Virus record (IMG/VR): IMGVR_UViG_3300033148_002693 | Coordinates: 34,717-98,716 of that record | Length of the DNA stretch: 64,000 nucleotides | DNA from: a virus | Direction: 5' to 3' (one strand) | Shown here: positions 14,789 to 42,439 of the stretch, piece by piece | Position numbering within the stretch: position 1 is the stretch's first letter | How the letters are laid out: each line of letters begins with the position of its first letter | The notes under the pieces: generated by a model | Told to the model about the DNA's origin: nothing | Seen by the model: the letters and a program-made list of their open reading frames with translations, nothing else | The model's database searches: none | Made by a program: the position numbers and the translations under genes

Positions 14789-14944
14789 ATGAAACGGACA
14801 ACGATTTGGTTGGGGAGTGCAGACAAAGAAGCTATTGAAATCATTAAGGTAAAATATGGCATGAAATCTGATAGTGCTGTTATAAGATTTGCTTTGCGTA
14901 TTATAGCATCTTCTAAAGTAGGAATAAGTAATAATGAAAATTAA
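14789..14944 (+). CDS. 51-aa ribbon-helix-helix (CopG/Arc-like) protein (not in ORF track)
   Basis: MKRTTIWLGSADKEAIEIIKVKYGMKSDSAVIRFALR: alternating beta strand, helix, G-x-x-S turn, S-x-x-IR-x-AL helix; overlaps tnpB start. Confidence 0.75.
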   Translation: MKRTTIWLGSADKEAIEIIKVKYGMKSDSAVIRFALRIIASSKVGISNNEN

Positions 14945-16031
14945 GCGATCAGTAAAGTGTAGTCTAAAATTTACTAACAAGCGCAAGTTGCAAACATTAG
15001 ATATGATTCGTCAAGAATATGTACAAGTTGTCAATGGCTATATAGATTTGTGGTGGGATGATACGCCTGTAAAGGCAGAGCTAAAAAAGGATAAAATAGA
15101 TTTAATTGTAGATACTTGGTTCTCACAACGCATGAAACAAACCGCAGCTAGGGAAGCGGTAGATATGATTGCATCTGCTAGGCAATTGGCTAAGAAATGT
15201 AGTAAGGAACCGTCGAAGCCTGTACATACTGGAAAGCGAATGGCTTGGACTTCTAGCACTGCTAATCTTGTACTATCTAAGACTTCAGAATTTGATGCTT
15301 GGTTACAGATACGCTCTGTTGGCAATAAGGTTAAATTGGATATACCTATCCAATTTCATAGGCAATTTAATAAGTGGAATGCACGAGGCCGCCGCCTTAA
15401 TTTCTATGTGATTTTGCAAGATGCGATTCAATTTGTATTTGAAATCGAAACTGGCCCTAAACAGGAACCAGATCGTTGTGTAGGTGTAGATACTGGCATT
15501 AAGAAGTTGGCTACACTAAATACAGGGGTTATGTTTGGTGAAGATATTGAACAGATAGTTGCGAAGATTAAGCGGTGTGAATGGGGGAGTAAAGGACAGA
15601 AACGAGCAAGGTCTCATTTACGTCAAAGGATGGGAGAGGTTGCTAAAAAGGTTTGCGGGATTGCTTCATTGGTTGTAGTAGAAGATTTACAAAAGATGAA
15701 TCATAAGACGAAGGTCAAACGTCGCTTGACCAAAAACATGCGGCGCGCGCTTGGTGCATGGGCATATTCATACTGGTTAAATCGACTACAAATGACTTCT
15801 GAAGAAACGAACGTTTCGTTCCGTAGAGTCAGTCCTTACTATACCAGTCAAAGATGTAATGCATGTGGTCACACTGAGCGGAGCAATCGCAATGGCGAGA
15901 GTTTTCTTTGTCGAGATTGTGGCCATATTGATGATGCGGATATTAATGCCGCAAAGAATATTCTTGAGCGATTTCTCACCGGACGATATGGTGCCGGTTG
16001 TAAAGCCTTAATAGAACAAAATACTATCTAG
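14934..16031 (+). CDS. tnpB: TnpB RNA-guided endonuclease
   Basis: RuvC-I GVDTG, RuvC-II VVEDL, Zn finger CNAC..CRDC, RuvC-III DADINAAKN; all catalytic residues intact. Confidence 0.93.
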   Translation: MKIKRSVKCSLKFTNKRKLQTLDMIRQEYVQVVNGYIDLWWDDTPVKAELKKDKIDLIVDTWFSQRMKQTAAREAVDMIASARQLAKKCSKEPSKPVHTGKRMAWTSSTANLVLSKTSEFDAWLQIRSVGNKVKLDIPIQFHRQFNKWNARGRRLNFYVILQDAIQFVFEIETGPKQEPDRCVGVDTGIKKLATLNTGVMFGEDIEQIVAKIKRCEWGSKGQKRARSHLRQRMGEVAKKVCGIASLVVVEDLQKMNHKTKVKRRLTKNMRRALGAWAYSYWLNRLQMTSEETNVSFRRVSPYYTSQRCNACGHTERSNRNGESFLCRDCGHIDDADINAAKNILERFLTGRYGAGCKALIEQNTI

Positions 16032-22110: not shown

Positions 22111-23967
22111 ATGAGCAAGTGCGTGAAGATATTATTGGTCATCGGCTTGCTGGTGGCCTGTACGAATTATGTTATCAATGAGGGAGCTACAATTGATGAG
22201 TTTCGCGTACCCCTGCGCGGATTGGGGTATTTCCACGGTGAGGCAATTGACCTAGTCCCGCTTAACGACCCCAATCTATCCCTGATTCAAGTAGAGTTCA
22301 CGTGGGGACAGCTTGATGATGGTAATAGAGGGGTACGTAGGAACGTTCTTGATCCTATCATATCCCAGATAACTGCTGCCGGCAAAGGGTACGTTCTGCG
22401 TATACCGGTCTATCAAAACAGAAGTAAAGCCAATCCTGGGCTTCCATCAAGCTTGTTGGGGATGACATGGAAGCATCCGGATGGGTGGCTGATACCACGA
22501 TATGATAATCCGTTACTGTTGATCGAATATTCCAAATTCTTGGACAATCTCGCAAGAGAATACAGCTCTGATCCATACTTGGCCGGCATACAGATTCCTG
22601 TCGGGTTGTACGGAGAGACACACCCCGACAGAAATGATGCTGAGTGCGCTTGTTCTGTATGGTTGTACAGTGCCGATCCAAACACGGGTGAGCGTCACAG
22701 GTTAGAACCATGTGAATGGTTTGTTTGGACATTTGGTGTCATGGAAGCATACAGGGAAGCCTTCCCAGACGCTCCGTTGGTGCTGATGAACGCTACGCAG
22801 TATGGGTATCCCTGCATCATTCCAGAACCGCCATACGACCGTAGAAATGAGCGGGTAGAATTCCAGGACAAGGCGATTGAGCTTGGCATCGGGTTCCAAA
22901 ATAACTCCCTTGATGAATGGGATGCCAACTGGCTCACGTGTGAGGTTACTGGCACGCATGGCACTTACACTATAGATGGTTCCGTTCAAGCGATCATCGA
23001 CAATCCACAACTGATAAGTGGGTTTGAGCGTGGAAGCTGGCTCAGACCGTTCGATAAGTTTTTCAGGGCGGGTGATTACCAGACCTGGTGGAGCTACCTC
23101 AATGCTCTTGACAAAGGGGTAGACTTCATCTTCCCTCCACAATGGGCGGGAGAGGTGACTGGTGGTGCATATCCTGCTGGTGTGTTTGCCTATCCAGATG
23201 ACTTGCCGTATGCTGAAGAACTTGCCTGGATGAATAGATTCACCAGCGAACATCTATCAAACCCACAAACGGCTTGGATCGCCATGTTTTCTGCCCCTGC
23301 TCCTGGGGAATATTCCTGGGGGACTGTAGACAACTATTGGTACTGTACGGCTGTTCACAATAACTACAAACAGCTTTTGGATTCGGATGAGAAGCTGGTC
23401 CCCGTGTATCGTATCGGGCCTGTAGTTGCACCATTCTATGAGGGCAAGTATGCGAGGCGTACAGATCAAATCAACGGTATTAACTCTGTAACATTGATAA
23501 CAGATGAAGACTTTGCTCCAGGCGTTATAGGATGGGAGGTAGAGCTATGGTTCCTGGACAACGGAACGGACGAAATAGGTTTGGATTACGACGGGGGAAG
23601 TTACAGGATCAGAAAGTTGGGAAGCGGGGAATGGGTACACAAGCGTGTCGCTCTAGGAAGGGCGGAGCTAGGTGGAGGCGGCGCGCTCACTATCAATTCC
23701 CTAAACGACGGGCCTGATGAGGTATTCAGTTTCGTAGAACTGATTCCTGCGCCAGGGAGTACGCCAACAGCTACGCCAACAGTTGCGCCGACCGCTACGG
23801 GTACACCTACGGGTACATTCACAAGTACACCTACATTTACGAGTACACCTACAAGCACGCCGACGCCTGAGGGCAGTTGGTTCCCGTTGAGGTTTTGTGC
23901 AATGAAGGGGGTAGGGTATTTCGGGATAGCGGTTCAATGGGAGGGGCCAGGTCCTTGCGGAGATTGA
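22111..23967 (+). CDS. Lipoprotein glycoside hydrolase (clan GH-A TIM-barrel-like) with C-terminal Pro/Thr repeats
   Basis: Lipobox LLVAC; FTWGQLD, IPRYDNP, GLYGE, GFE patterns of GH42-like barrels; (TP)n linker. Confidence 0.65.
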   Translation: MSKCVKILLVIGLLVACTNYVINEGATIDEFRVPLRGLGYFHGEAIDLVPLNDPNLSLIQVEFTWGQLDDGNRGVRRNVLDPIISQITAAGKGYVLRIPVYQNRSKANPGLPSSLLGMTWKHPDGWLIPRYDNPLLLIEYSKFLDNLAREYSSDPYLAGIQIPVGLYGETHPDRNDAECACSVWLYSADPNTGERHRLEPCEWFVWTFGVMEAYREAFPDAPLVLMNATQYGYPCIIPEPPYDRRNERVEFQDKAIELGIGFQNNSLDEWDANWLTCEVTGTHGTYTIDGSVQAIIDNPQLISGFERGSWLRPFDKFFRAGDYQTWWSYLNALDKGVDFIFPPQWAGEVTGGAYPAGVFAYPDDLPYAEELAWMNRFTSEHLSNPQTAWIAMFSAPAPGEYSWGTVDNYWYCTAVHNNYKQLLDSDEKLVPVYRIGPVVAPFYEGKYARRTDQINGINSVTLITDEDFAPGVIGWEVELWFLDNGTDEIGLDYDGGSYRIRKLGSGEWVHKRVALGRAELGGGGALTINSLNDGPDEVFSFVELIPAPGSTPTATPTVAPTATGTPTGTFTSTPTFTSTPTSTPTPEGSWFPLRFCAMKGVGYFGIAVQWEGPGPCGD

Positions 23968-23968
23968 A

Positions 23969-24262
23969 ATGGAAGCGATTGTTGAGAGTATTTGGATTCA
24001 GCTAGGTGCAGTTGGGTTGTTTTCGGTAGTGATGGCGGCTATAGCGTGGGCATTATGGCGTTCATTATGTGAATGTCAGAAAGCCAGAACAGATGATGAT
24101 TCGGAGCGTGTTCGTATGTGTACAGATGCAATGCAGGAGATGGCGCTTGCACTCAGGGAAGTAAATGAGACGATGCGCGCTGGATTCGAGAGCATGAATC
24201 ATACGCTGGATTTGAAGGGTCAGCTTGATGGTTTGAGAGAGGAAATTCGTAGGAAGGGGTAG
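23969..24262 (+). CDS. Holin-like protein (single N-terminal TM plus coiled coil)
   Basis: QLGAVGLFSVVMAAIAWALW TM, BhlA-like layout, follows hydrolase. Confidence 0.5.
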   Translation: MEAIVESIWIQLGAVGLFSVVMAAIAWALWRSLCECQKARTDDDSERVRMCTDAMQEMALALREVNETMRAGFESMNHTLDLKGQLDGLREEIRRKG

Positions 24263-24264
24263 TC

Positions 24265-24444
24265 ATGTTTGGATGGTTGATAAAGCGTAAAGCCAACAAA
24301 CCAAATGGGGTGTTAGAGAAGTCTGATGAATACTTCGACCAATTGGGCGAAATCATCAGAGAGACCAGGATACTTCGTGGCGTATTTGCTGACATTCAAA
24401 AACGTGTGGAGATCATAGATGCCGAACTGAATGGGAAATCTTGA
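24265..24444 (+). CDS. 59-aa hypothetical protein (not in ORF track)
   Basis: MFGWLIKRKANK...; AAGGGG RBS; fills gap. Confidence 0.5.
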   Translation: MFGWLIKRKANKPNGVLEKSDEYFDQLGEIIRETRILRGVFADIQKRVEIIDAELNGKS

Positions 24445-28696: not shown

Positions 28697-28725
28697 TTGA
28701 CAATATACTGTCTATCTGCTATAAT
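28697..28725 (+). promoter_or_regulatory. Consensus sigma70 promoter, paralogous to the one at 26000
   Basis: TTGACA-N17-TATAAT; shares CTGCTATAATGTATATA and the upstream AAAATTTTAAGGT box. Confidence 0.9.
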
Positions 28726-32829: not shown

Positions 32830-33142
32830 CTATAATTGGAATTGTTTGGAGCATAAAACGGTGAGAATCAGACTGAACGACAAACAATGCAGGCCGACAT
32901 TGAGAAATAGGTTGGAGCTTCACGAGTTGTATCCAGATACAATCTTGCTGTTTCGTATCGGGGATTTTTATGAAGCGTTTGATGACGATGCAAAAGTGGT
33001 AGCTGAGGAATGCCGGATCATGCTCACCGGCGGAGTGATTTGTATCGCTGGTTTTCCATGTACATCCTCTGAGAAATACGTCAAGATGCTGGTTGATTCT
33101 GGTTTCAAAGTAGGATTGATAGATAATAGAATAAGTACTTGA
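32810..33142 (+). CDS. Stand-alone MutS domain I (mismatch-recognition domain)
   Basis: YPDTILLFRIGDFYEAFDDDAKVVA...AGFP...YVKMLVDSGFKV; start uncertain (GTG at 32861 possible). Confidence 0.85.
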   Translation: MRNCWCSYNWNCLEHKTVRIRLNDKQCRPTLRNRLELHELYPDTILLFRIGDFYEAFDDDAKVVAEECRIMLTGGVICIAGFPCTSSEKYVKMLVDSGFKVGLIDNRIST

Positions 33143-33167
33143 CAATATAATCACAATATGTTATAAT
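33139..33167 (+). promoter_or_regulatory. Consensus sigma70 promoter
   Basis: TTGACA-N17-TATAAT with TG. Confidence 0.9.
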
Positions 33168-33995: not shown

Positions 33996-34805
33996 ATGAG
34001 TTGGGCAGACAAAAGAGGAAAAGTATCCGAGACATGGTATGGAGCGAAATTGGACGAGGGTGTCTATTGTGCGACACTTGTCCGCATCGGAGAGCCGTTT
34101 GTAGTCCACAATAGACAGTATGGAACATCAATCAAGGTATCATTCGATTGGTGGCCCGATGTTTGCGACGATCCCAAACACTTGATCAGTGATGCCGTGA
34201 ACCTTCCGATGGTCCCCGGAGCATCAGAACAATTGGCCGAAACCAAAGGCCGACTCCCCGAAGATATGTACAATCTCATTGCAGATGAGTACGGATCACG
34301 TATGGCTATTTGCCAACTTGCATCCGTCCTTGGAGGTTATGAGATGGTCAAGGGGAAGGATGGTAAAGTGGAAAAAGAGTTGCTTCCATCGAAGATGCTC
34401 GGAGCGCGGGCATACATCACTGTGACGAAAGGCGAGAACAGGATGTATATCAAGCGTGAGGAGATCATGGCCGTCGAGTCAGACGATGAGCCGCCCGATA
34501 GGGTTTGGAAGAATCCCTGGACAGATAAGGGACAGAAGGAATCACGAGAGACCGCTCCTAAAGAGATCGTCGAGTATATACGGGAGTTGGCAACAACGAT
34601 GAAGAAAGCCTTCGGTGGGAAAGAGGGTGAGCAGTTCATCAAACGGGTAAATCGTGCCCGCACAGAGTTCGATCCAAAAAGTACCAAACTCAACAATGTG
34701 AGCGTAGAAGGGGCAAACAGGTTAATAACCTGGATGCGCGATGAATACGCAAAGGCTGAGATCGAATTCCCAGAACCGCCCGTCGATAGTGCGGATGAAT
34801 TGTAG
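33996..34805 (+). CDS. Hypothetical protein, possibly SSB/recombination-related
   Basis: LDEGVY.ATLV start and acidic tail resemble phage OB-fold SSBs; not verified. Confidence 0.4.
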   Translation: MSWADKRGKVSETWYGAKLDEGVYCATLVRIGEPFVVHNRQYGTSIKVSFDWWPDVCDDPKHLISDAVNLPMVPGASEQLAETKGRLPEDMYNLIADEYGSRMAICQLASVLGGYEMVKGKDGKVEKELLPSKMLGARAYITVTKGENRMYIKREEIMAVESDDEPPDRVWKNPWTDKGQKESRETAPKEIVEYIRELATTMKKAFGGKEGEQFIKRVNRARTEFDPKSTKLNNVSVEGANRLITWMRDEYAKAEIEFPEPPVDSADEL

Positions 34806-34832
34806 TTTGTGAGATACCGCTATGGCAGGGGA

Positions 34833-34948
34833 CATAGTGCATGGGTTGAGCTTGATTCGACGTAATGAATCCGGTGCGCCTGCAATGTATCGGGCATAGG
34901 CACTGTAAGGGGTTAATATAGAATACACAATGATACTCATGCACTATG
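34833..34948 (+). ncRNA. Kink-turn-containing structured RNA, copy 1
   Basis: 14-bp terminal stem (one G-U), U.U/G.A/A.G plus AAU bulge, internal hairpins; ~8 differences from copy 2. Confidence 0.75.
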
Positions 34949-34968
34949 CAACACAGGGAGGTTAGGCA

Positions 34969-35223
34969 ATGAAAACAGTAATAACAAAAAGGATTGAAAT
35001 GGCAACACAGGAAATACGCTTTGGCTATTGGGACATGGCCAGGCACAAATTTATCCCGCTTTATGACCTGAATGAGGATGAGAGCGCGGAGGCTGCCACC
35101 AAGCTAGGCGTTTCTGAGTTGTTGCTAGACTCACTTACGGTATTCTCAGACACAATAGCGGAACTGGTTGGCAGGGATTTGGCAAATATCTGGGAACGTC
35201 TGGATCGCATTGAGAAGAAATAG
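34969..35223 (+). CDS. Small hypothetical protein between the two RNA copies
   Basis: GGGAGG RBS; C-terminal coiled coil. Confidence 0.7.
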   Translation: MKTVITKRIEMATQEIRFGYWDMARHKFIPLYDLNEDESAEAATKLGVSELLLDSLTVFSDTIAELVGRDLANIWERLDRIEKK

Positions 35224-35229
35224 GTAACA

Positions 35230-35301
35230 ACCGCTACGCCATTCGTGACGGGAGAGGCCCGCAGCAGACACTTGGTTCTGGAATGACGGTGGCGCGGCGG
35301 T
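35230..35301 (+). ncRNA. Candidate ~72-nt three-way-junction RNA
   Basis: ACCGCT-A-CGCCATT pairs with GGTGGCG-C-GGCGGT; two internal hairpins. Confidence 0.55.
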
Positions 35302-35305
35302 AAGG

Positions 35306-35420
35306 CATAGTGCATGGGTTGAGCTTGATTCGACGTAATGAATCCGGTGCACCTGCAATGTATCGGGCATAGGCACTGTATAGGTTAATATGGGATACCC
35401 AATGATACCCATGCACTATG
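35306..35420 (+). ncRNA. Kink-turn-containing structured RNA, copy 2
   Basis: CATAGTGCATGGGT/ACCCATGCACTATG perfect 14-bp stem plus canonical k-turn. Confidence 0.75.
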
Positions 35421-35426
35421 TAATAT

Positions 35427-35499
35427 GGCTGGTGTAGCTCATTGGGGTGATAGAGCACCGCTTTGCGGAGGTAGTGGGTTCGACTCTCACCATCAGCCA
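35427..35499 (+). tRNA. tRNA-like RNA with truncated anticodon arm (no assignable anticodon)
   Basis: Acceptor GCTGGTG/CATCAGC, TA, D-stem GCTC/GAGC, T-arm GTGGG-TTCGACT-CTCAC; anticodon arm only CCGC-TTT-GCGG. Confidence 0.8.
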
Positions 35500-35504
35500 A
35501 TATA

Positions 35505-36023
35505 ATGGAGGGTGAAATGATGTGGTATAGCAATCGCACGATGATCGTCAAGGAAGACTTGGAACCTATCGAATGGCATGGTATGCCAGGGATGGAGCCA
35601 CGTATTGGTGATAGGGTAGTCTCTGACGCAATCATTCATTTTGGAAAGAGCAAAGACCAATACCTGAGTCAGCAGAATTCCCATTGGCTATCGTTCGTGT
35701 TTAGGAGTCAATCAAGACCAGGGTGGCAGCTTCAGTTGATTTGGGATATGGGGATGGCCTTGCTGTCCAGAGAACGAGTGAAAAAGGGAAGTCAGAGCGA
35801 TCCTTTATTAAATCTGTGGTGTTCGCTACGAAGGCAGAATTACGATCCTGGGATGATATGGGCCAGCATTGAAATTTGGACGGAAGAAGAGATGAACGAG
35901 GTTGTTCAAGACTTGATAGATAAATACGCAAGGCGTGTGCATCCATATGTTATACGTTCACCTTTGGGCGAACATGCTCAGGATGCCGTAGACATGGAAG
36001 CGCAAATGTTTGATGAATTCTAA
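35505..36023 (+). CDS. Hypothetical protein
   Basis: ORF with GGAGG RBS (start probably near 35517). Confidence 0.7.
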   Translation: MEGEMMWYSNRTMIVKEDLEPIEWHGMPGMEPRIGDRVVSDAIIHFGKSKDQYLSQQNSHWLSFVFRSQSRPGWQLQLIWDMGMALLSRERVKKGSQSDPLLNLWCSLRRQNYDPGMIWASIEIWTEEEMNEVVQDLIDKYARRVHPYVIRSPLGEHAQDAVDMEAQMFDEF

Positions 36024-38024: not shown

Positions 38025-38493
38025 ATTGAAAGTGACAGCAGAAGCATTACTTGAATTGTTGGAGCGCGACTTCGGCTATAATGAAGAGGCACGCAAAACA
38101 GCATTGGAAATTAATGATATGGCTGAACCCTGGGACAGTATGAATGCACTACGCCTAGCATTGGCAAGGTTTGAGTGGATTAGCGTTGATGATGACTTGC
38201 CCAAAATTCCAGGTATGATGACATTCGTTGCATACAAGTCGGGCTGGATTGCAGGCAATGTGTACAACGTAGTGTTAGCACGATGGAAAGAGGGCAAGTG
38301 GTGGTGGAATTCTAGTCAACCAATAACAGTAAGGATTCTGTATTGGCAACCAGTGTATTGGCCCGATCCACCTGAGATTGAAAAAGGAGGTATGGCTATT
38401 TTTGGCGGGAAGCCGCCATTAGTCGGCTGGCCTCACACATCTTGTCGCGATGGCGGCTTCTATGTAAATTGGAAACGGAAATTTGACATTTAA
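38017..38493 (+). CDS. DUF551-like protein
   Basis: WISVDDDLP...ILYWQPVYWPDPP. Confidence 0.65.
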   Translation: MNELKVTAEALLELLERDFGYNEEARKTALEINDMAEPWDSMNALRLALARFEWISVDDDLPKIPGMMTFVAYKSGWIAGNVYNVVLARWKEGKWWWNSSQPITVRILYWQPVYWPDPPEIEKGGMAIFGGKPPLVGWPHTSCRDGGFYVNWKRKFDI

Positions 38494-38511
38494 TAACTTA
38501 TATGTTATAAT
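38483..38511 (+). promoter_or_regulatory. Consensus sigma70 promoter
   Basis: TTGACA-N17-TATAAT with TG. Confidence 0.9.
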
Positions 38512-38967: not shown

Positions 38968-38996
38968 TTGACAAACATAAATTATTATTGTATAAT
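38968..38996 (+). promoter_or_regulatory. Consensus sigma70 promoter
   Basis: TTGACA-N17-TATAAT. Confidence 0.85.
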
Positions 38997-40601: not shown

Positions 40602-41226
40602 AGCCGCCGAGAGATTCGGCCTTAGTCGCCGTTCCCTCATTCGCTACGAGGCAGACGGGCTGATAGAACCAGTACGTACCCCTGGTGGTCAGCGGCGTTA
40701 TCCTGAGTCTGAGCTTCTGCGGCTCTACGGGCTTGAGACGAAAACCAAGCCGGATGGCGATAGAGCGGGATTGTACAGCCGTGTTTCTACCCGCAAGCAA
40801 GCCGACTCAGGCAATCTTGACCGACAAACGCAGCGGCTAAAGGACTATGCTCAAGCTGCTGGCTTCGACACTGTTGAGGTATATGAGGAAATCGCCAGTG
40901 GCTTGAACGAAAACCGCCGTCAGTTGCGGAAGTTGCTGAAGACAATCATTGCGGGTAAGGTTAATGTCGTGGTCGTGGAGTACAAAGACCGCCTTGCCCG
41001 CTTCGGCTATGCTTATCTTGAGTTGTTCTGTGAGTCTCACGGGGCGCGGATCGTAGCCATTGAAGAAAAAGCGTCTGACGACGAGAATGAAGAATTGGTC
41101 AAGGATTTGATTTCTGTTGTGACAAGTTTTTCAGCGAGACTTTATGGGCGGCGTGGGGGCCGTAAAGCAAAGAAGGAACTTGAGGAACAGTTGCGTGGCG
41201 AAGGTAAAGAGAGCGCACAAAATTAG
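40579..41226 (+). CDS. tnpA: IS607 TnpA serine recombinase
   Basis: MerR-type HTH (RTPGGQRRY), YSRVST catalytic Ser, EIASG, DRLARFG, ELVKDL. Confidence 0.95.
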   Translation: MKLYTQAEAAERFGLSRRSLIRYEADGLIEPVRTPGGQRRYPESELLRLYGLETKTKPDGDRAGLYSRVSTRKQADSGNLDRQTQRLKDYAQAAGFDTVEVYEEIASGLNENRRQLRKLLKTIIAGKVNVVVVEYKDRLARFGYAYLELFCESHGARIVAIEEKASDDENEELVKDLISVVTSFSARLYGRRGGRKAKKELEEQLRGEGKESAQN

Positions 41227-42439
41227 ATTGAATCCTACCACAGAGCAGGCGCAATGGTTGCTCCGGGCTTGCGGTGTGGCTAGGTTTTGTTACAACTGGG
41301 GACTCGAAAGATGGCGCGAGCAATACGAGGCCGGCGGGAAGCCGTCCGCCTATAAGCTCAAGAAGCAGTTCAACGCCATCAAGTCGGGGGAATATCCCTG
41401 GGTTTACGAGGTTGACAAGTGCGCTCAGGACACAGGGTTCCGCAATCTCGATATGGCCTTCAAGAACTTCTTTCGTCGGTGCAAGGGCGGTGATGCTAAG
41501 AAGGGCTATCCCCGCTTCAAATCTCGCAAGCATAGCAAGTTGTCATATCGGATAGATGGTTGTCGTGTTAGGTTAGACGGTCACTGGATCAAACTTCCCA
41601 AGTTGGACAAACCAATCAACATGACCGAGACCTTGCGATTTGACGGCGAAGTCAAATCGGTCACGATCTCCAAAGATGGTAAGCATTGGTATGCGGCAAT
41701 CAATGTAGAAGTCGAACCGCCAGAGCACGAGCATCTGCAAGGATCGGTTGGGATAGATTTGGGTATAAAGACGTTAGCTGTTCTCTCGGATGGCATACAG
41801 TATGAGAATCAAAGACTGCTACGCTCAGAACTGGGAAAGCTAAAGCGTCTGAACCGTGAGTTATCTCGTCGATCACAGGGCAGTAATCGCTGGAAGCGCA
41901 CCAAAGCAAAGCTGGCAAGATTGCACCGACGCATAGCCAATCGCCGATCAGACTACCAGCACAAGATGACGACAAAGATCGCTAGTACATACCGAGTTGT
42001 TGGCATTGAAGATTTGAACGTGGCGGGGATGCTCAGGAATCATCGTCTGGCCCTGTCTATCAGCGATGCGGGGTTTGGAGAAATTCGTCGCCAGCTATTA
42101 TACAAGAGCAAATGGTATGGTGGCGAGTTGGTGGAGATTGACCGCTTTTTTCCATCTAGTAAGCTCTGTCGGTTTTGCGGTTGCATCAATGATGGCTTAA
42201 CGCTGGCAGATCGGGAATGGGCTTGCGACTGTGGTGCTGTATTAGACCGGGATCGAAACGCGGCTATCAATATCGAAATGAAAGCACTGAGAATTTTGGG
42301 CCGGAGTGGGTTCACGGACCAAGTAAAAAACGGACGTGGACAGAATGTCAGACCCTTCGGGGCAGTTCTGAATGAAACGTCAAAAATGGTCGAGGAAAGG
42401 CGACCGTCCAAGCCGTGTCAGTTTGGCACAATTTGGTAA
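41195..42439 (+). CDS. tnpB: TnpB RNA-guided endonuclease
   Basis: HTH_OrfB start, GIDLG, IEDL, CRFC..CDC, DRDRNAAIN. Confidence 0.95.
   Translation: MAKVKRAHKIRLNPTTEQAQWLLRACGVARFCYNWGLERWREQYEAGGKPSAYKLKKQFNAIKSGEYPWVYEVDKCAQDTGFRNLDMAFKNFFRRCKGGDAKKGYPRFKSRKHSKLSYRIDGCRVRLDGHWIKLPKLDKPINMTETLRFDGEVKSVTISKDGKHWYAAINVEVEPPEHEHLQGSVGIDLGIKTLAVLSDGIQYENQRLLRSELGKLKRLNRELSRRSQGSNRWKRTKAKLARLHRRIANRRSDYQHKMTTKIASTYRVVGIEDLNVAGMLRNHRLALSISDAGFGEIRRQLLYKSKWYGGELVEIDRFFPSSKLCRFCGCINDGLTLADREWACDCGAVLDRDRNAAINIEMKALRILGRSGFTDQVKNGRGQNVRPFGAVLNETSKMVEERRPSKPCQFGTIW

What the first reader, a model, noticed from the sequence alone, without database searches (positions are those of the whole stretch)
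35427..35499. tRNA body with an amputated anticodon arm and His-like G-1:C73
Seen: acceptor stem, U8-A9, D-arm and T-arm (TTCGACT) are intact. The anticodon arm is an 11-nt perfect mini-hairpin (CCGC-TTT-GCGG) instead of 17 nt, which looks like clean remodelling rather than decay. An extra G-1 can pair with C73, the tRNA-His identity element. No CCA is encoded. It starts 6 nt after k-turn RNA copy 2. Inference: it is an RNase P processing tag that sets the 3' end of the upstream RNA, or a decoy for tRNA-recognising toxins or synthetases that anticodon nucleases cannot cleave.
Basis: partly seen in the sequence, partly recalled or inferred. Interest (0 to 1): 0.75.

Follow-up and report, generated by a model that had tools for sequence, protein, structure and literature searches.

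The report
Phage tRNA look-alike without an anticodon
A complete 99-kb phage genome carries one well-formed tRNA-shaped RNA gene whose codon-reading arm is cut down to a tiny hairpin. It cannot decode, and it probably serves as a cutting signal inside a long transcript, or it is a recently disabled tRNA gene; similar stub tRNA look-alikes turn out to be common in phage DNA.

Summary
Window 35428-35498 matches the Rfam tRNA model (41.1 bits, cut-off 29). The acceptor stem, D-arm and T-arm are intact. The anticodon arm is replaced by CCGC-UUU-GCGG (11 nt). G-1 can pair with C73, and no CCA is encoded. The element starts 6 nt after the second copy of a duplicated ~115-nt structured RNA.

New here:
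- The host genome is a complete, singleton phage with no true tRNA. It encodes a Ro60 homologue with Y-RNA-like genes 60 kb away.
- The element lies 2.3 kb inside a ~5.3-kb operon driven by a perfect sigma-70 promoter.
- Pattern scans found dozens of unrelated stub-anticodon tRNA look-alikes in viral and metagenome contigs. Compared with normal tRNAs carrying the same motifs, they are enriched for C73 and G-1:C73. They rarely encode CCA, and only they have 12-nt D-loops. This element has all three traits.

Caveat: the clean hairpin is not evidence of design. Deleting nt 34-39 from an ordinary arm gives exactly this sequence.

Best reading (0.45): a non-decoding tRNA-like RNA that RNase P and 3' processing enzymes cut out, so it punctuates the transcript. 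Main rival (0.3): a recently dead tRNA gene.

No homologue, reads or RNA data were available. This scan earlier noted anticodon-less tRNA look-alikes in another phage.

The parts
35427..35427 (+). G-1, able to pair with C73 and make an 8-bp acceptor helix
   Evidence: Sequence. RNAfold pairs it with C73 at probability 0.998.
35428..35436 (+). Acceptor 5' strand GCUGGUG, then U8 A9
   Evidence: It pairs 7/7 with 35491-35497, including one G.U.
35437..35456 (+). D-arm: GCUC/GAGC stem with a 12-nt loop AUUGGGGUGAUA, one nt over the canonical maximum
   Evidence: No 12-nt D-loop occurs among 67 normal-length controls.
35458..35468 (+). Stub in place of the anticodon arm: CCGC-UUU-GCGG (4 bp plus triloop, 11 nt instead of 17)
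35469..35490 (+). Variable loop AGGUA and T-arm GUGGG-UUCGACU-CUCAC
35491..35498 (+). Acceptor 3' strand CAUCAGC and discriminator C73; no CCA follows
35499..35520 (+). AU-rich trailer AAUAUAAU, the GGAGG ribosome-binding site, and ATG codons (35505, 35517, 35520) of the 172-aa orphan ORF
35306..35420 (+). Copy 2 of the duplicated structured RNA (14-bp terminal stem). It ends 6 nt before G-1. Copy 1 is at 34833-34948.
33139..33167 (+). Perfect TTGACA-N17-TATAAT promoter with TG extension. It is the nearest upstream promoter on the + strand. No + strand terminator-like site lies before about 38444.

Best explanation
The element is a tRNA-derived RNA that cannot decode, and it is transcribed as an internal part of a ~5.3-kb phage operon. 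It keeps the acceptor/T-arm helix and the D/T-loop elbow, which host tRNA-processing enzymes recognise. RNase P should therefore cut at its 5' side, most likely between -2 and -1, because G-1:C73 lengthens the acceptor helix to 8 bp as in pre-tRNA-His. A 3' tRNA-processing activity should cut in the AU-rich trailer after C73. These cuts would release three things: the stem-closed ~115-nt RNA upstream with a 5-nt tail, the downstream mRNA, and a stable L-shaped RNA of about 72 nt. Any further role of that free RNA (decoy, histidine acceptor, protein ligand) is open. The anatomy, the operon position and the class-level traits are shown here. Transcription, cleavage and any trans-acting role are inferred.
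For: The tRNA model matches with every helix intact. The conserved tertiary-contact positions are present: U8, A14, GG in the D-loop, A21 and UUCGA in the T-loop. A perfect promoter lies 2.26 kb upstream and no + strand terminator lies between it and the element. Spacing is tight: 6 nt after the stem-closed RNA and about 18 nt before the next gene's start region. The genome is a complete record with direct terminal repeats. It has no true tRNA, no tyrosine integrase, no RtcB and no CCA-adding enzyme, so this is not a member of a decaying tRNA array and not an attP remnant.

Stub-anticodon look-alikes are common. More than 119 viral contigs matched one narrow pattern, and 39 metagenome contigs carry exactly 11-nt arms. 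Among 64 unique well-paired stub elements against 47 normal-length controls with the same motifs: C73 22 against 2; G-1:C73 12 (8 families) against 0; CCA encoded 4 against 27; 12-nt D-loops occur only in the stub set. In arrays whose normal tRNAs mostly or all encode CCA, the stub copy usually lacks it. This element has C73, G-1, no CCA and a 12-nt D-loop.

One stub family keeps an identical mini-arm across bodies that differ by paired changes in the acceptor and T stems. That argues at least some of the class is selected. It is established knowledge that RNase P needs only the acceptor/T-arm helix, and that a G-1:C73 pair shifts its cut to -1.
Against: No homologue of this particular element or of its neighbouring genes was found, so there is no conservation or covariation evidence for it. 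No sequencing run or RNA data could be obtained. A single 6-nt deletion explains the stub arm. Copy 1 of the upstream RNA has no such tag. The class may itself mix functional RNAs with pseudogenes. Pairing at -1:73 and the lack of CCA are not obviously helpful for RNase P.
Confidence: 0.45

Rival explanations
1. It is a recently disabled tRNA gene. The phage once carried a decoding tRNA, a 6-nt deletion (for example nt 34-39) removed the anticodon, and the remnant has not yet decayed. Any processing that occurs is incidental.
For: Deleting nt 34-39 from an ordinary arm (U31:A39, U32, U33) yields exactly CCGC-UUU-GCGG (sequence logic). The share of perfect 4-bp/triloop arms among 11-nt arms (about 8 of 26) equals the random-deletion expectation of 4 in 12. 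About half of the stub elements sit inside phage tRNA arrays, as dead copies would. The element has no homologue showing that it is kept.
Against: A plain deletion derivative should keep its parent's ends. Yet C73 occurs in 2/47 and G-1:C73 in 0/47 matched normal tRNAs, G at -1 is about 5% among 423 normal tRNAs, and no control has a 12-nt D-loop. Every helix and every tertiary-contact position is still intact. The phage has no other true tRNA and is densely packed.
Confidence: 0.3
2. The released stub tRNA is the point of the gene. It acts in trans as a decoy or sponge for host factors that grip the tRNA body (tRNA-directed defence nucleases, acceptor-end-modifying toxins, RNase P). Alternatively, after CCA addition it is a histidine acceptor that cannot enter decoding. 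This reading adds to the processing reading and does not exclude it.
For: G-1:C73 is the main HisRS identity mark (established knowledge) and is enriched in the class. A second subset of the class carries G3:U70 with A73, the anticodon-independent alanine mark (7 with A73 out of 9 with G3:U70, among 64). Host defences that destroy anticodon arms are known, and phage tRNAs evade one of them through shorter anticodon stems (PMC12445682). A review also cites a Schlafen-like nuclease that leaves an anticodon-less tRNA (PMC13434031). One stub family lies about 580 nt upstream of a phage RNA ligase gene.
Against: CCA is not encoded here and is rare in the class, even in arrays where normal tRNAs encode it. 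That argues against selection for an aminoacylatable end. Nucleases that read the anticodon loop would not bind a stub. The G3:U70 share (9/64) is not clearly above controls (5/47). No defence or counter-defence gene was recognised nearby.
Confidence: 0.15
3. It is a partner RNA of the phage's own Ro60 protein, that is, a Y-RNA-type tRNA mimic.
For: The phage encodes a TROVE + vWA_Ro60 protein. This gene is preceded by three tandem hairpin RNAs, and the third embeds a tRNA-like module. Bacterial Y RNAs mimic tRNA (PMC4201824).
Against: The element is about 60 kb from the Ro60 gene, whereas Y RNAs lie within 4 kb of it. It is not permuted like YrlA, and it is not nested in a long Ro-binding stem. 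No GNCGAAN0-1G motif occurs in 34800-35530. TROVE is absent from all 40 other phage records with stub elements, 14 of them complete. An unbiased profile built from the three Y-like RNAs does not find the neighbouring duplicated RNA.
Confidence: 0.07
4. It is an assembly error: the true genome has a normal anticodon arm.
For: No reads could be inspected.
Against: The contig is a complete genome with terminal repeats. A clean 6-nt loss is not a typical assembler error. Dozens of independent contigs show the same kind of arm.
Confidence: 0.03

Closest known systems
Canonical bacterial or phage tRNA (Rfam RF00005)
   Same: It has a 7-bp acceptor stem, U8, a D-arm with GG, a 5-nt variable loop, and a T-arm with UUCGA. 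It scores above the family cut-off.
   Different: It has no 7-nt anticodon loop (an 11-nt stub). The D-loop is 12 nt. No CCA is encoded. G-1:C73 occurs with an otherwise non-His body. ARAGORN does not call it.
mascRNA at the 3' end of MALAT1, and the MEN-beta tRNA-like element (mammals; from my own knowledge)
   Same: Each is a tRNA-like element with a reduced anticodon arm lying directly 3' of a structured non-coding RNA. There, RNase P cleavage makes the 3' end of the upstream RNA.
   Different: Those are eukaryotic nuclear RNAs. Here cleavage is untested, and the first copy of the upstream RNA has no such element.
tRNA-like RNAs (vtRNAs/TMERs) of murine gammaherpesvirus 68 (from my own knowledge)
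   Same: They are virus-encoded tRNA look-alikes with short anticodon stems. They are processed like tRNAs, are not used for decoding, and are linked to neighbouring small RNAs.
   Different: That is an animal virus using pol III promoters and RNase Z-dependent miRNA release. There is no sequence relation.
Bacterial Y RNAs with tRNA-like modules (YrlA, Yrn1; PMC4201824), including this phage's own Y-like RNAs
   Same: They are non-decoding tRNA mimics, and they are present in phages that encode Ro60, as this one does.
   Different: YrlA is circularly permuted (T arm, acceptor-like stem, D arm). It lies within 4 kb of the Ro60 gene and carries GNCGAAN0-1G. None of these holds here.
Phage tRNA-Thr variants that resist the P2 OLD nuclease (PMC12445682)
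   Same: They are phage tRNA genes whose anticodon stem is shortened under pressure from host tRNA nucleases.
   Different: Those keep the 7-nt loop and still decode ACA. This one has no anticodon.
Anticodon-less alanine-type tRNA look-alikes in a giant phage
   Same: They are phage-encoded, have a tRNA body, and have no decoding loop.
   Different: That note reports alanine identity marks and an encoded CCA. This element has U3-A70, G-1:C73 and no CCA.

Membership tests
Decoding tRNA | Acceptor, D and T arms with conserved tertiary-contact positions; Rfam RF00005 score at or above 29 bits | tested here: met
   41.1 bits over model positions 1-71. All stems pair.
Decoding tRNA | Anticodon arm of 5 bp with a 7-nt loop (U33, anticodon, purine 37) | tested here: not met
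   The arm is 4 bp plus a UUU triloop. ARAGORN gives no call.
tRNA-His identity set (bacterial) | G-1 paired with C73 | tested here: met
   G at 35427 and C at 35498. This shows only that the sequence allows the pair.
tRNA-His identity set (bacterial) | GUG anticodon; a mature 3' CCA end; charging by HisRS | tested here: not met
   There is no anticodon, and CCA is not encoded. Post-transcriptional CCA addition and charging cannot be tested with these tools.
YrlA-type Y RNA | Permuted order (T arm, acceptor-like stem, D arm) inside a Ro-binding stem; GNCGAAN0-1G motif; within 4 kb of the Ro60 gene on the same strand | tested here: not met
   The arm order is the normal tRNA order. The motif is absent. 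The Ro60 gene is at genome 9326-10807 and the element at about 70144.
tmRNA tRNA-like domain | G3:U70 alanine mark, reduced D-arm, attached mRNA-like part | tested here: not met
   It has U3-A70 and a full D-stem. ARAGORN and Rfam give no tmRNA call.
RNase P-dependent 3'-end tag (mascRNA-like) | tRNA-like fold directly 3' of the RNA whose end it makes | tested here: met
   It starts 6 nt after the terminal stem of repeat copy 2.
RNase P-dependent 3'-end tag (mascRNA-like) | Cleavage by RNase P at the 5' side of the tRNA-like element | not testable with these tools
   No sequencing run was listed.
Phage attP / tRNA gene fragment | 3' part of a host tRNA next to an integrase gene | tested here: not met
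   Both halves of the tRNA body are present. No tyrosine integrase occurs in a complete genome.
Nuclease cassette with a disabled tRNA copy (earlier notes of this scan) | Small GIY-YIG or HNH nuclease gene beside a tRNA copy whose anticodon arm is replaced by a hairpin, next to an intact copy | tested here: not met
   Neither Pfam nor PHROGs finds a nuclease domain in the flanking ORFs. The genome has no intact tRNA copy.

The most novel reading that the evidence does not exclude
Phages widely encode a distinct class of anticodon-stub tRNA mimics. Their traits are an 8-bp acceptor helix closed by G-1:C73 (or the alanine mark G3:U70), no encoded CCA, and often an enlarged D-loop. In this reading the class is selected for a trans-acting role: for example, soaking up host tRNA-directed defence enzymes, or carrying an amino acid (histidine or alanine) outside translation. 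This element would be one member.
Probability: 0.15. Interest if true: 0.8.

Novelty: new variant of a known kind. Interest (0 to 1): 0.5.

Why it matters
Phage tRNA genes are now read mainly as counter-measures to host nucleases that cut tRNA. A tRNA body kept without its anticodon does not fit that picture. If stub tRNAs are selected, they point either to tRNA-shaped punctuation of phage transcripts or to a trans-acting mimic aimed at host tRNA-handling enzymes. The class-level signals found here (C73 and G-1:C73, no CCA, long D-loops) give a concrete, testable definition. I found no paper that describes such a class. If the elements are merely dead genes, they are still a frequent source of 'undetermined' tRNA calls in phage annotation.

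Tried and rejected
- Close relatives of the locus. These searches found nothing usable: an exact or degenerate pattern of this element in viral contigs; neighbour proteins in viral contigs; the 172-aa neighbour against 5.8 billion proteins, which returned only itself; and BLAST of the locus, the element and a large protein against cultured phages and E. coli genomes. The best weak hits were ordinary tRNA-Arg and tRNA-Ala (E = 0.6), and the tRNA-Ala is of normal length. Isotype ancestry therefore stays open. My impression that the body looks Thr-like rests on memory only.
- Terminase relatives are only 27-31% identical.
- Sequencing runs: none was listed, so no reads or RNA ends could be examined.
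- Link to Ro60: TROVE is absent from 40 records holding stub elements.
- Link between the duplicated upstream RNA and the Y-like RNAs. A regex written after the fact hits only these five sites, but that test is circular. A profile built only from the three Y-like RNAs does not find the duplicated RNA. Rejected as unsupported.
- A shared long-D-loop pattern retrieves only one other family, the TGATAAG family, with 18 near-identical copies. It gave no homologue of this element.
- The neighbouring ORFs are not paralogues, have no Pfam or PHROG family, and gave no useful atlas lead. The exception is a weak DUF669-like signal for the upstream 275-aa protein.
- No other Rfam family occurs near the element.
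- Literature searches for a described class of phage stub-anticodon tRNA look-alikes found none.

Full report
**What is there.** The element has G-1 (35427), a 7-bp acceptor stem (35428-34 with 35491-97, one G.U), and U8 A9. Its D-stem is GCUC/GAGC around a 12-nt loop. After A26 comes an 11-nt hairpin, CCGC-UUU-GCGG (35458-68), where a 17-nt anticodon arm belongs. Then follow a 5-nt variable loop, a T-arm GUGGG-UUCGACU-CUCAC, discriminator C73 (35498), and AAUAUAA instead of CCA. The Rfam tRNA model matches end to end at 41.1 bits (cut-off 29; E = 2.9e-5 for the whole window and library). The alignment shows the missing middle of the anticodon arm. It is the only tRNA-model hit in the window even at E<=5. 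ARAGORN calls nothing at default settings. The cloverleaf is within 0.5 kcal/mol of the minimum free energy.

**Setting.** The window is bases 34717-98716 of a 98,716-base virus record with direct terminal repeats, rated complete. All genes run on the + strand. The phage is a singleton. Its terminase has only 27-31% identical relatives in viral contigs. The genes flanking the element have no relatives at all.

Four perfect TTGACA-N17-TATAAT promoters lie on the + strand. The one at 33139-33167 is the nearest upstream of the element, and no + strand terminator-like site follows before about 38444. The element therefore sits about 2.26 kb inside a roughly 5.3-kb operon.

The order along that operon is:
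- a 275-aa gene;
- copy 1 of a ~115-nt stem-closed RNA;
- an 84-aa ORF;
- a small junction-type fold;
- copy 2 of the RNA;
- a 6-nt spacer;
- the tRNA-like element;
- about 18 nt carrying GGAGG;
- a 172-aa orphan ORF.

Copy 1 goes straight into its ORF without any tRNA-like element.

**The rest of the genome.** ARAGORN finds one 'tRNA-Tyr' at genome 9198-9271 (52.5 bits). It lies immediately upstream of a Ro60 homologue with TROVE and vWA_Ro60 domains. This 'tRNA' has only a 5-bp acceptor stem and an extra GGCC-GAAA-GGUC hairpin, and it is enclosed by a GAGAGGG/CCCUCUC stem. Two further hairpin RNAs that share its 5' motif precede it. I read these three as Y-RNA-like genes, the third with a non-permuted tRNA-like module. 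The phage therefore has no true tRNA. It also lacks RtcB, a CCA-adding enzyme and a tyrosine integrase.

**Is the element tied to Ro60?** Probably not. It lies 60 kb from the Ro60 gene, whereas published Y RNAs lie within 4 kb (PMC4201824). It has normal tRNA arm order, not the permuted YrlA order. The GNCGAAN0-1G motif is absent. None of 40 other phage records with similar elements encodes a TROVE protein. A resemblance I noticed between the duplicated RNA and the Y-like RNAs did not survive an unbiased profile search.

**Related elements elsewhere.** No homologue could be found, so I asked whether the kind of element recurs. I scanned viral contigs with a pattern for a standard D-arm and T-loop set 16-22 nt apart; the normal distance is about 26. 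Roughly half are normal tRNAs caught in a shifted register. The remainder are tRNA bodies with arms of 7-13 nt. A stricter pattern for exactly 11-nt arms found 39 metagenome contigs but only 7 contigs in 596 Gb of prokaryote genomes. These stub elements score 40-55 bits on the tRNA model, like this one. About half lie in phage tRNA arrays on the same strand, and half are solitary.

**Class traits.** I compared 64 unique well-paired stub elements with 47 normal-length tRNAs that match the same motifs in the same contigs (Fisher tests).

| Trait | Stub elements (n=64) | Normal-length controls (n=47) | p |
|---|---|---|---|
| C73 | 22 | 2 | 1e-4 |
| G-1:C73 | 12 (8 families) | 0 | 1e-3 |
| -1:73 Watson-Crick pair | 39 | 11 | 1e-4 |
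| CCA encoded | 4 | 27 | 3e-9 |

G at -1 is about 5% among 423 normal tRNAs. In arrays whose normal tRNAs mostly or all encode CCA, the stub copy usually lacks it. Twelve-nt D-loops occur only in the stub set. One family, found in at least 18 large-phage contigs, keeps the mini-arm CACU-ACAAA-AGUG (one A/G change in the loop) across bodies whose acceptor and T stems differ by paired changes. That family looks selected. The element under study has C73, G-1, no CCA and a 12-nt D-loop, so it looks like this class and not like a freshly damaged ordinary tRNA.

These numbers come from one narrow pattern and a truncated hit list, so they are indicative only.

The perfect mini-hairpin is not evidence of remodelling. 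The inner nine nucleotides of an anticodon arm are nt 31-39. Deleting any six consecutive ones leaves four outer base pairs and a triloop. Deleting nt 34-39 from an arm with U31:A39, U32 and U33 gives exactly CCGC-UUU-GCGG. Four of the twelve possible 6-nt windows do this. The observed share of perfect 4-bp/triloop arms among 11-nt arms, about 8 of 26, is what random deletion predicts.

**Mechanism.** RNase P recognises the acceptor/T-arm helix and elbow and does not need the anticodon arm. A G-1:C73 pair moves its cut one position upstream, as in pre-tRNA-His. Both points are established knowledge. The fold is intact and sits inside a long transcript. The most economical reading is therefore that the host tRNA-processing machinery excises it. 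The excision splits the operon RNA, trims the upstream stem-closed RNA to a short tail, and frees the downstream mRNA. Precedents are tRNAs co-transcribed with mRNAs in bacteria, and the mascRNA and gammaherpesvirus tRNA-like elements in animals (from my knowledge).

Whether the freed stub RNA does more is open. Recent work shows host defences that remove whole anticodon arms, and phage tRNAs that evade one of them with shorter stems (PMC12445682; review PMC13434031). That makes a decoy role conceivable. The G-1:C73 enrichment keeps a histidine-acceptor role alive, but the general absence of CCA speaks against it.

**Verdict.** I put 0.45 on a functional, processed, non-decoding tRNA-like element; 0.30 on a recently dead tRNA gene; 0.15 on a primary trans-acting decoy or acceptor role, which can coexist with processing; 0.07 on a Ro60 partner; and 0.03 on an assembly error. 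I found no paper that describes a class of phage stub-anticodon tRNA look-alikes. No reads, RNA data or homologues were available, so the decisive tests remain experimental.

Noticed in passing
L001 9018-9300 and 9326-10807 (genome coordinates, outside the window): A phage Ro60 homologue (TROVE + vWA_Ro60) is preceded by three tandem Y-RNA-like hairpins that share the 5' motif G(G/A)CA(G/C)UGAUG. The third embeds the genome's only ARAGORN 'tRNA-Tyr(GUA)'. That 'tRNA' has a 5-bp acceptor stem, an extra GAAA-capped hairpin and an enclosing 7-bp stem. This is a non-permuted tRNA-like Y RNA, unlike the published permuted YrlA.
   Followed up: partly
window 28697-28725, 33139-33167, 38483-38511, 38968-38996: Four perfect 12/12 TTGACA-N17-TATAAT promoters on the + strand, three with a TG extension. 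They divide the early region into operons.
   Followed up: no
window 34833-34948 vs 35306-35420: The two copies of the stem-closed RNA are 99% identical over the first 75 nt. In the 3' part, copy 2 keeps a GGGAUACCC hairpin and a perfect terminal stem, while copy 1 has lost the hairpin and has a G.U pair. Copy 2 also has a 72-nt junction-type fold inserted upstream.
   Followed up: partly
L009 9565-9638 and relatives (L004, L014, L031, L043, L096, L109, L116, L178-L189): A near-invariant stub tRNA look-alike occurs in at least 18 viral contigs (most over 100 kb). Its traits are acceptor UGAUAAG, a 12-nt D-loop, mini-arm CACU-ACAAA-AGUG, G-1:C73 and no CCA. In L009 it lies about 200 nt after a tRNA-Met and about 580 nt before an RNA ligase gene (PF09414).
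   Followed up: partly
L048, L049, L062, L063, L102: Five stub tRNA look-alikes with different bodies share a mini-arm capped by the tetraloop GACG, on stems of varying sequence (CUC/GAG, UGC/GCA, GUGC/GCAU).
   Followed up: no
L003 8828-8895; also L040, L106, L063: These stub look-alikes carry the alanine identity mark G3:U70 with A73. The one in L003 lies about 500 nt from a permuted tmRNA gene (Rfam RF04321, 61.6 bits) and a tRNA-Lys.
   Followed up: no
L010, L021, L045, L105: These tRNA-shaped genes have 13-nt arms of the form CAUG-UUUUA-CAUG. The arm can also be read as a 3-bp stem with a 7-nt loop carrying U33 and a UUU anticodon. They may be decoding tRNA-Lys with a shortened anticodon stem.
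   Followed up: no
39 solitary stub elements in L003-L162: The 100 nt on either side of solitary stub elements fold more stably than shuffled sequence (mean z -1.76 upstream, -1.11 downstream; 41% and 28% below -2). This suggests they often sit among other structured RNAs. No control set was run.
   Followed up: partly
window 14934-16031, 41144-42439, 49497-50723: Three TnpB/Cas12f-like genes (OrfB_IS605 and/or Cas12f1-like TNB domains) in one phage genome.
   Followed up: no
The Rfam tRNA model does not detect it even at E<=10.
   Followed up: partly
L002 6274-7335 (genome about 23273-24334): A queuine tRNA-ribosyltransferase-like gene (phrog_887), the type that phages use for 7-deazaguanine DNA modification.
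   Followed up: no
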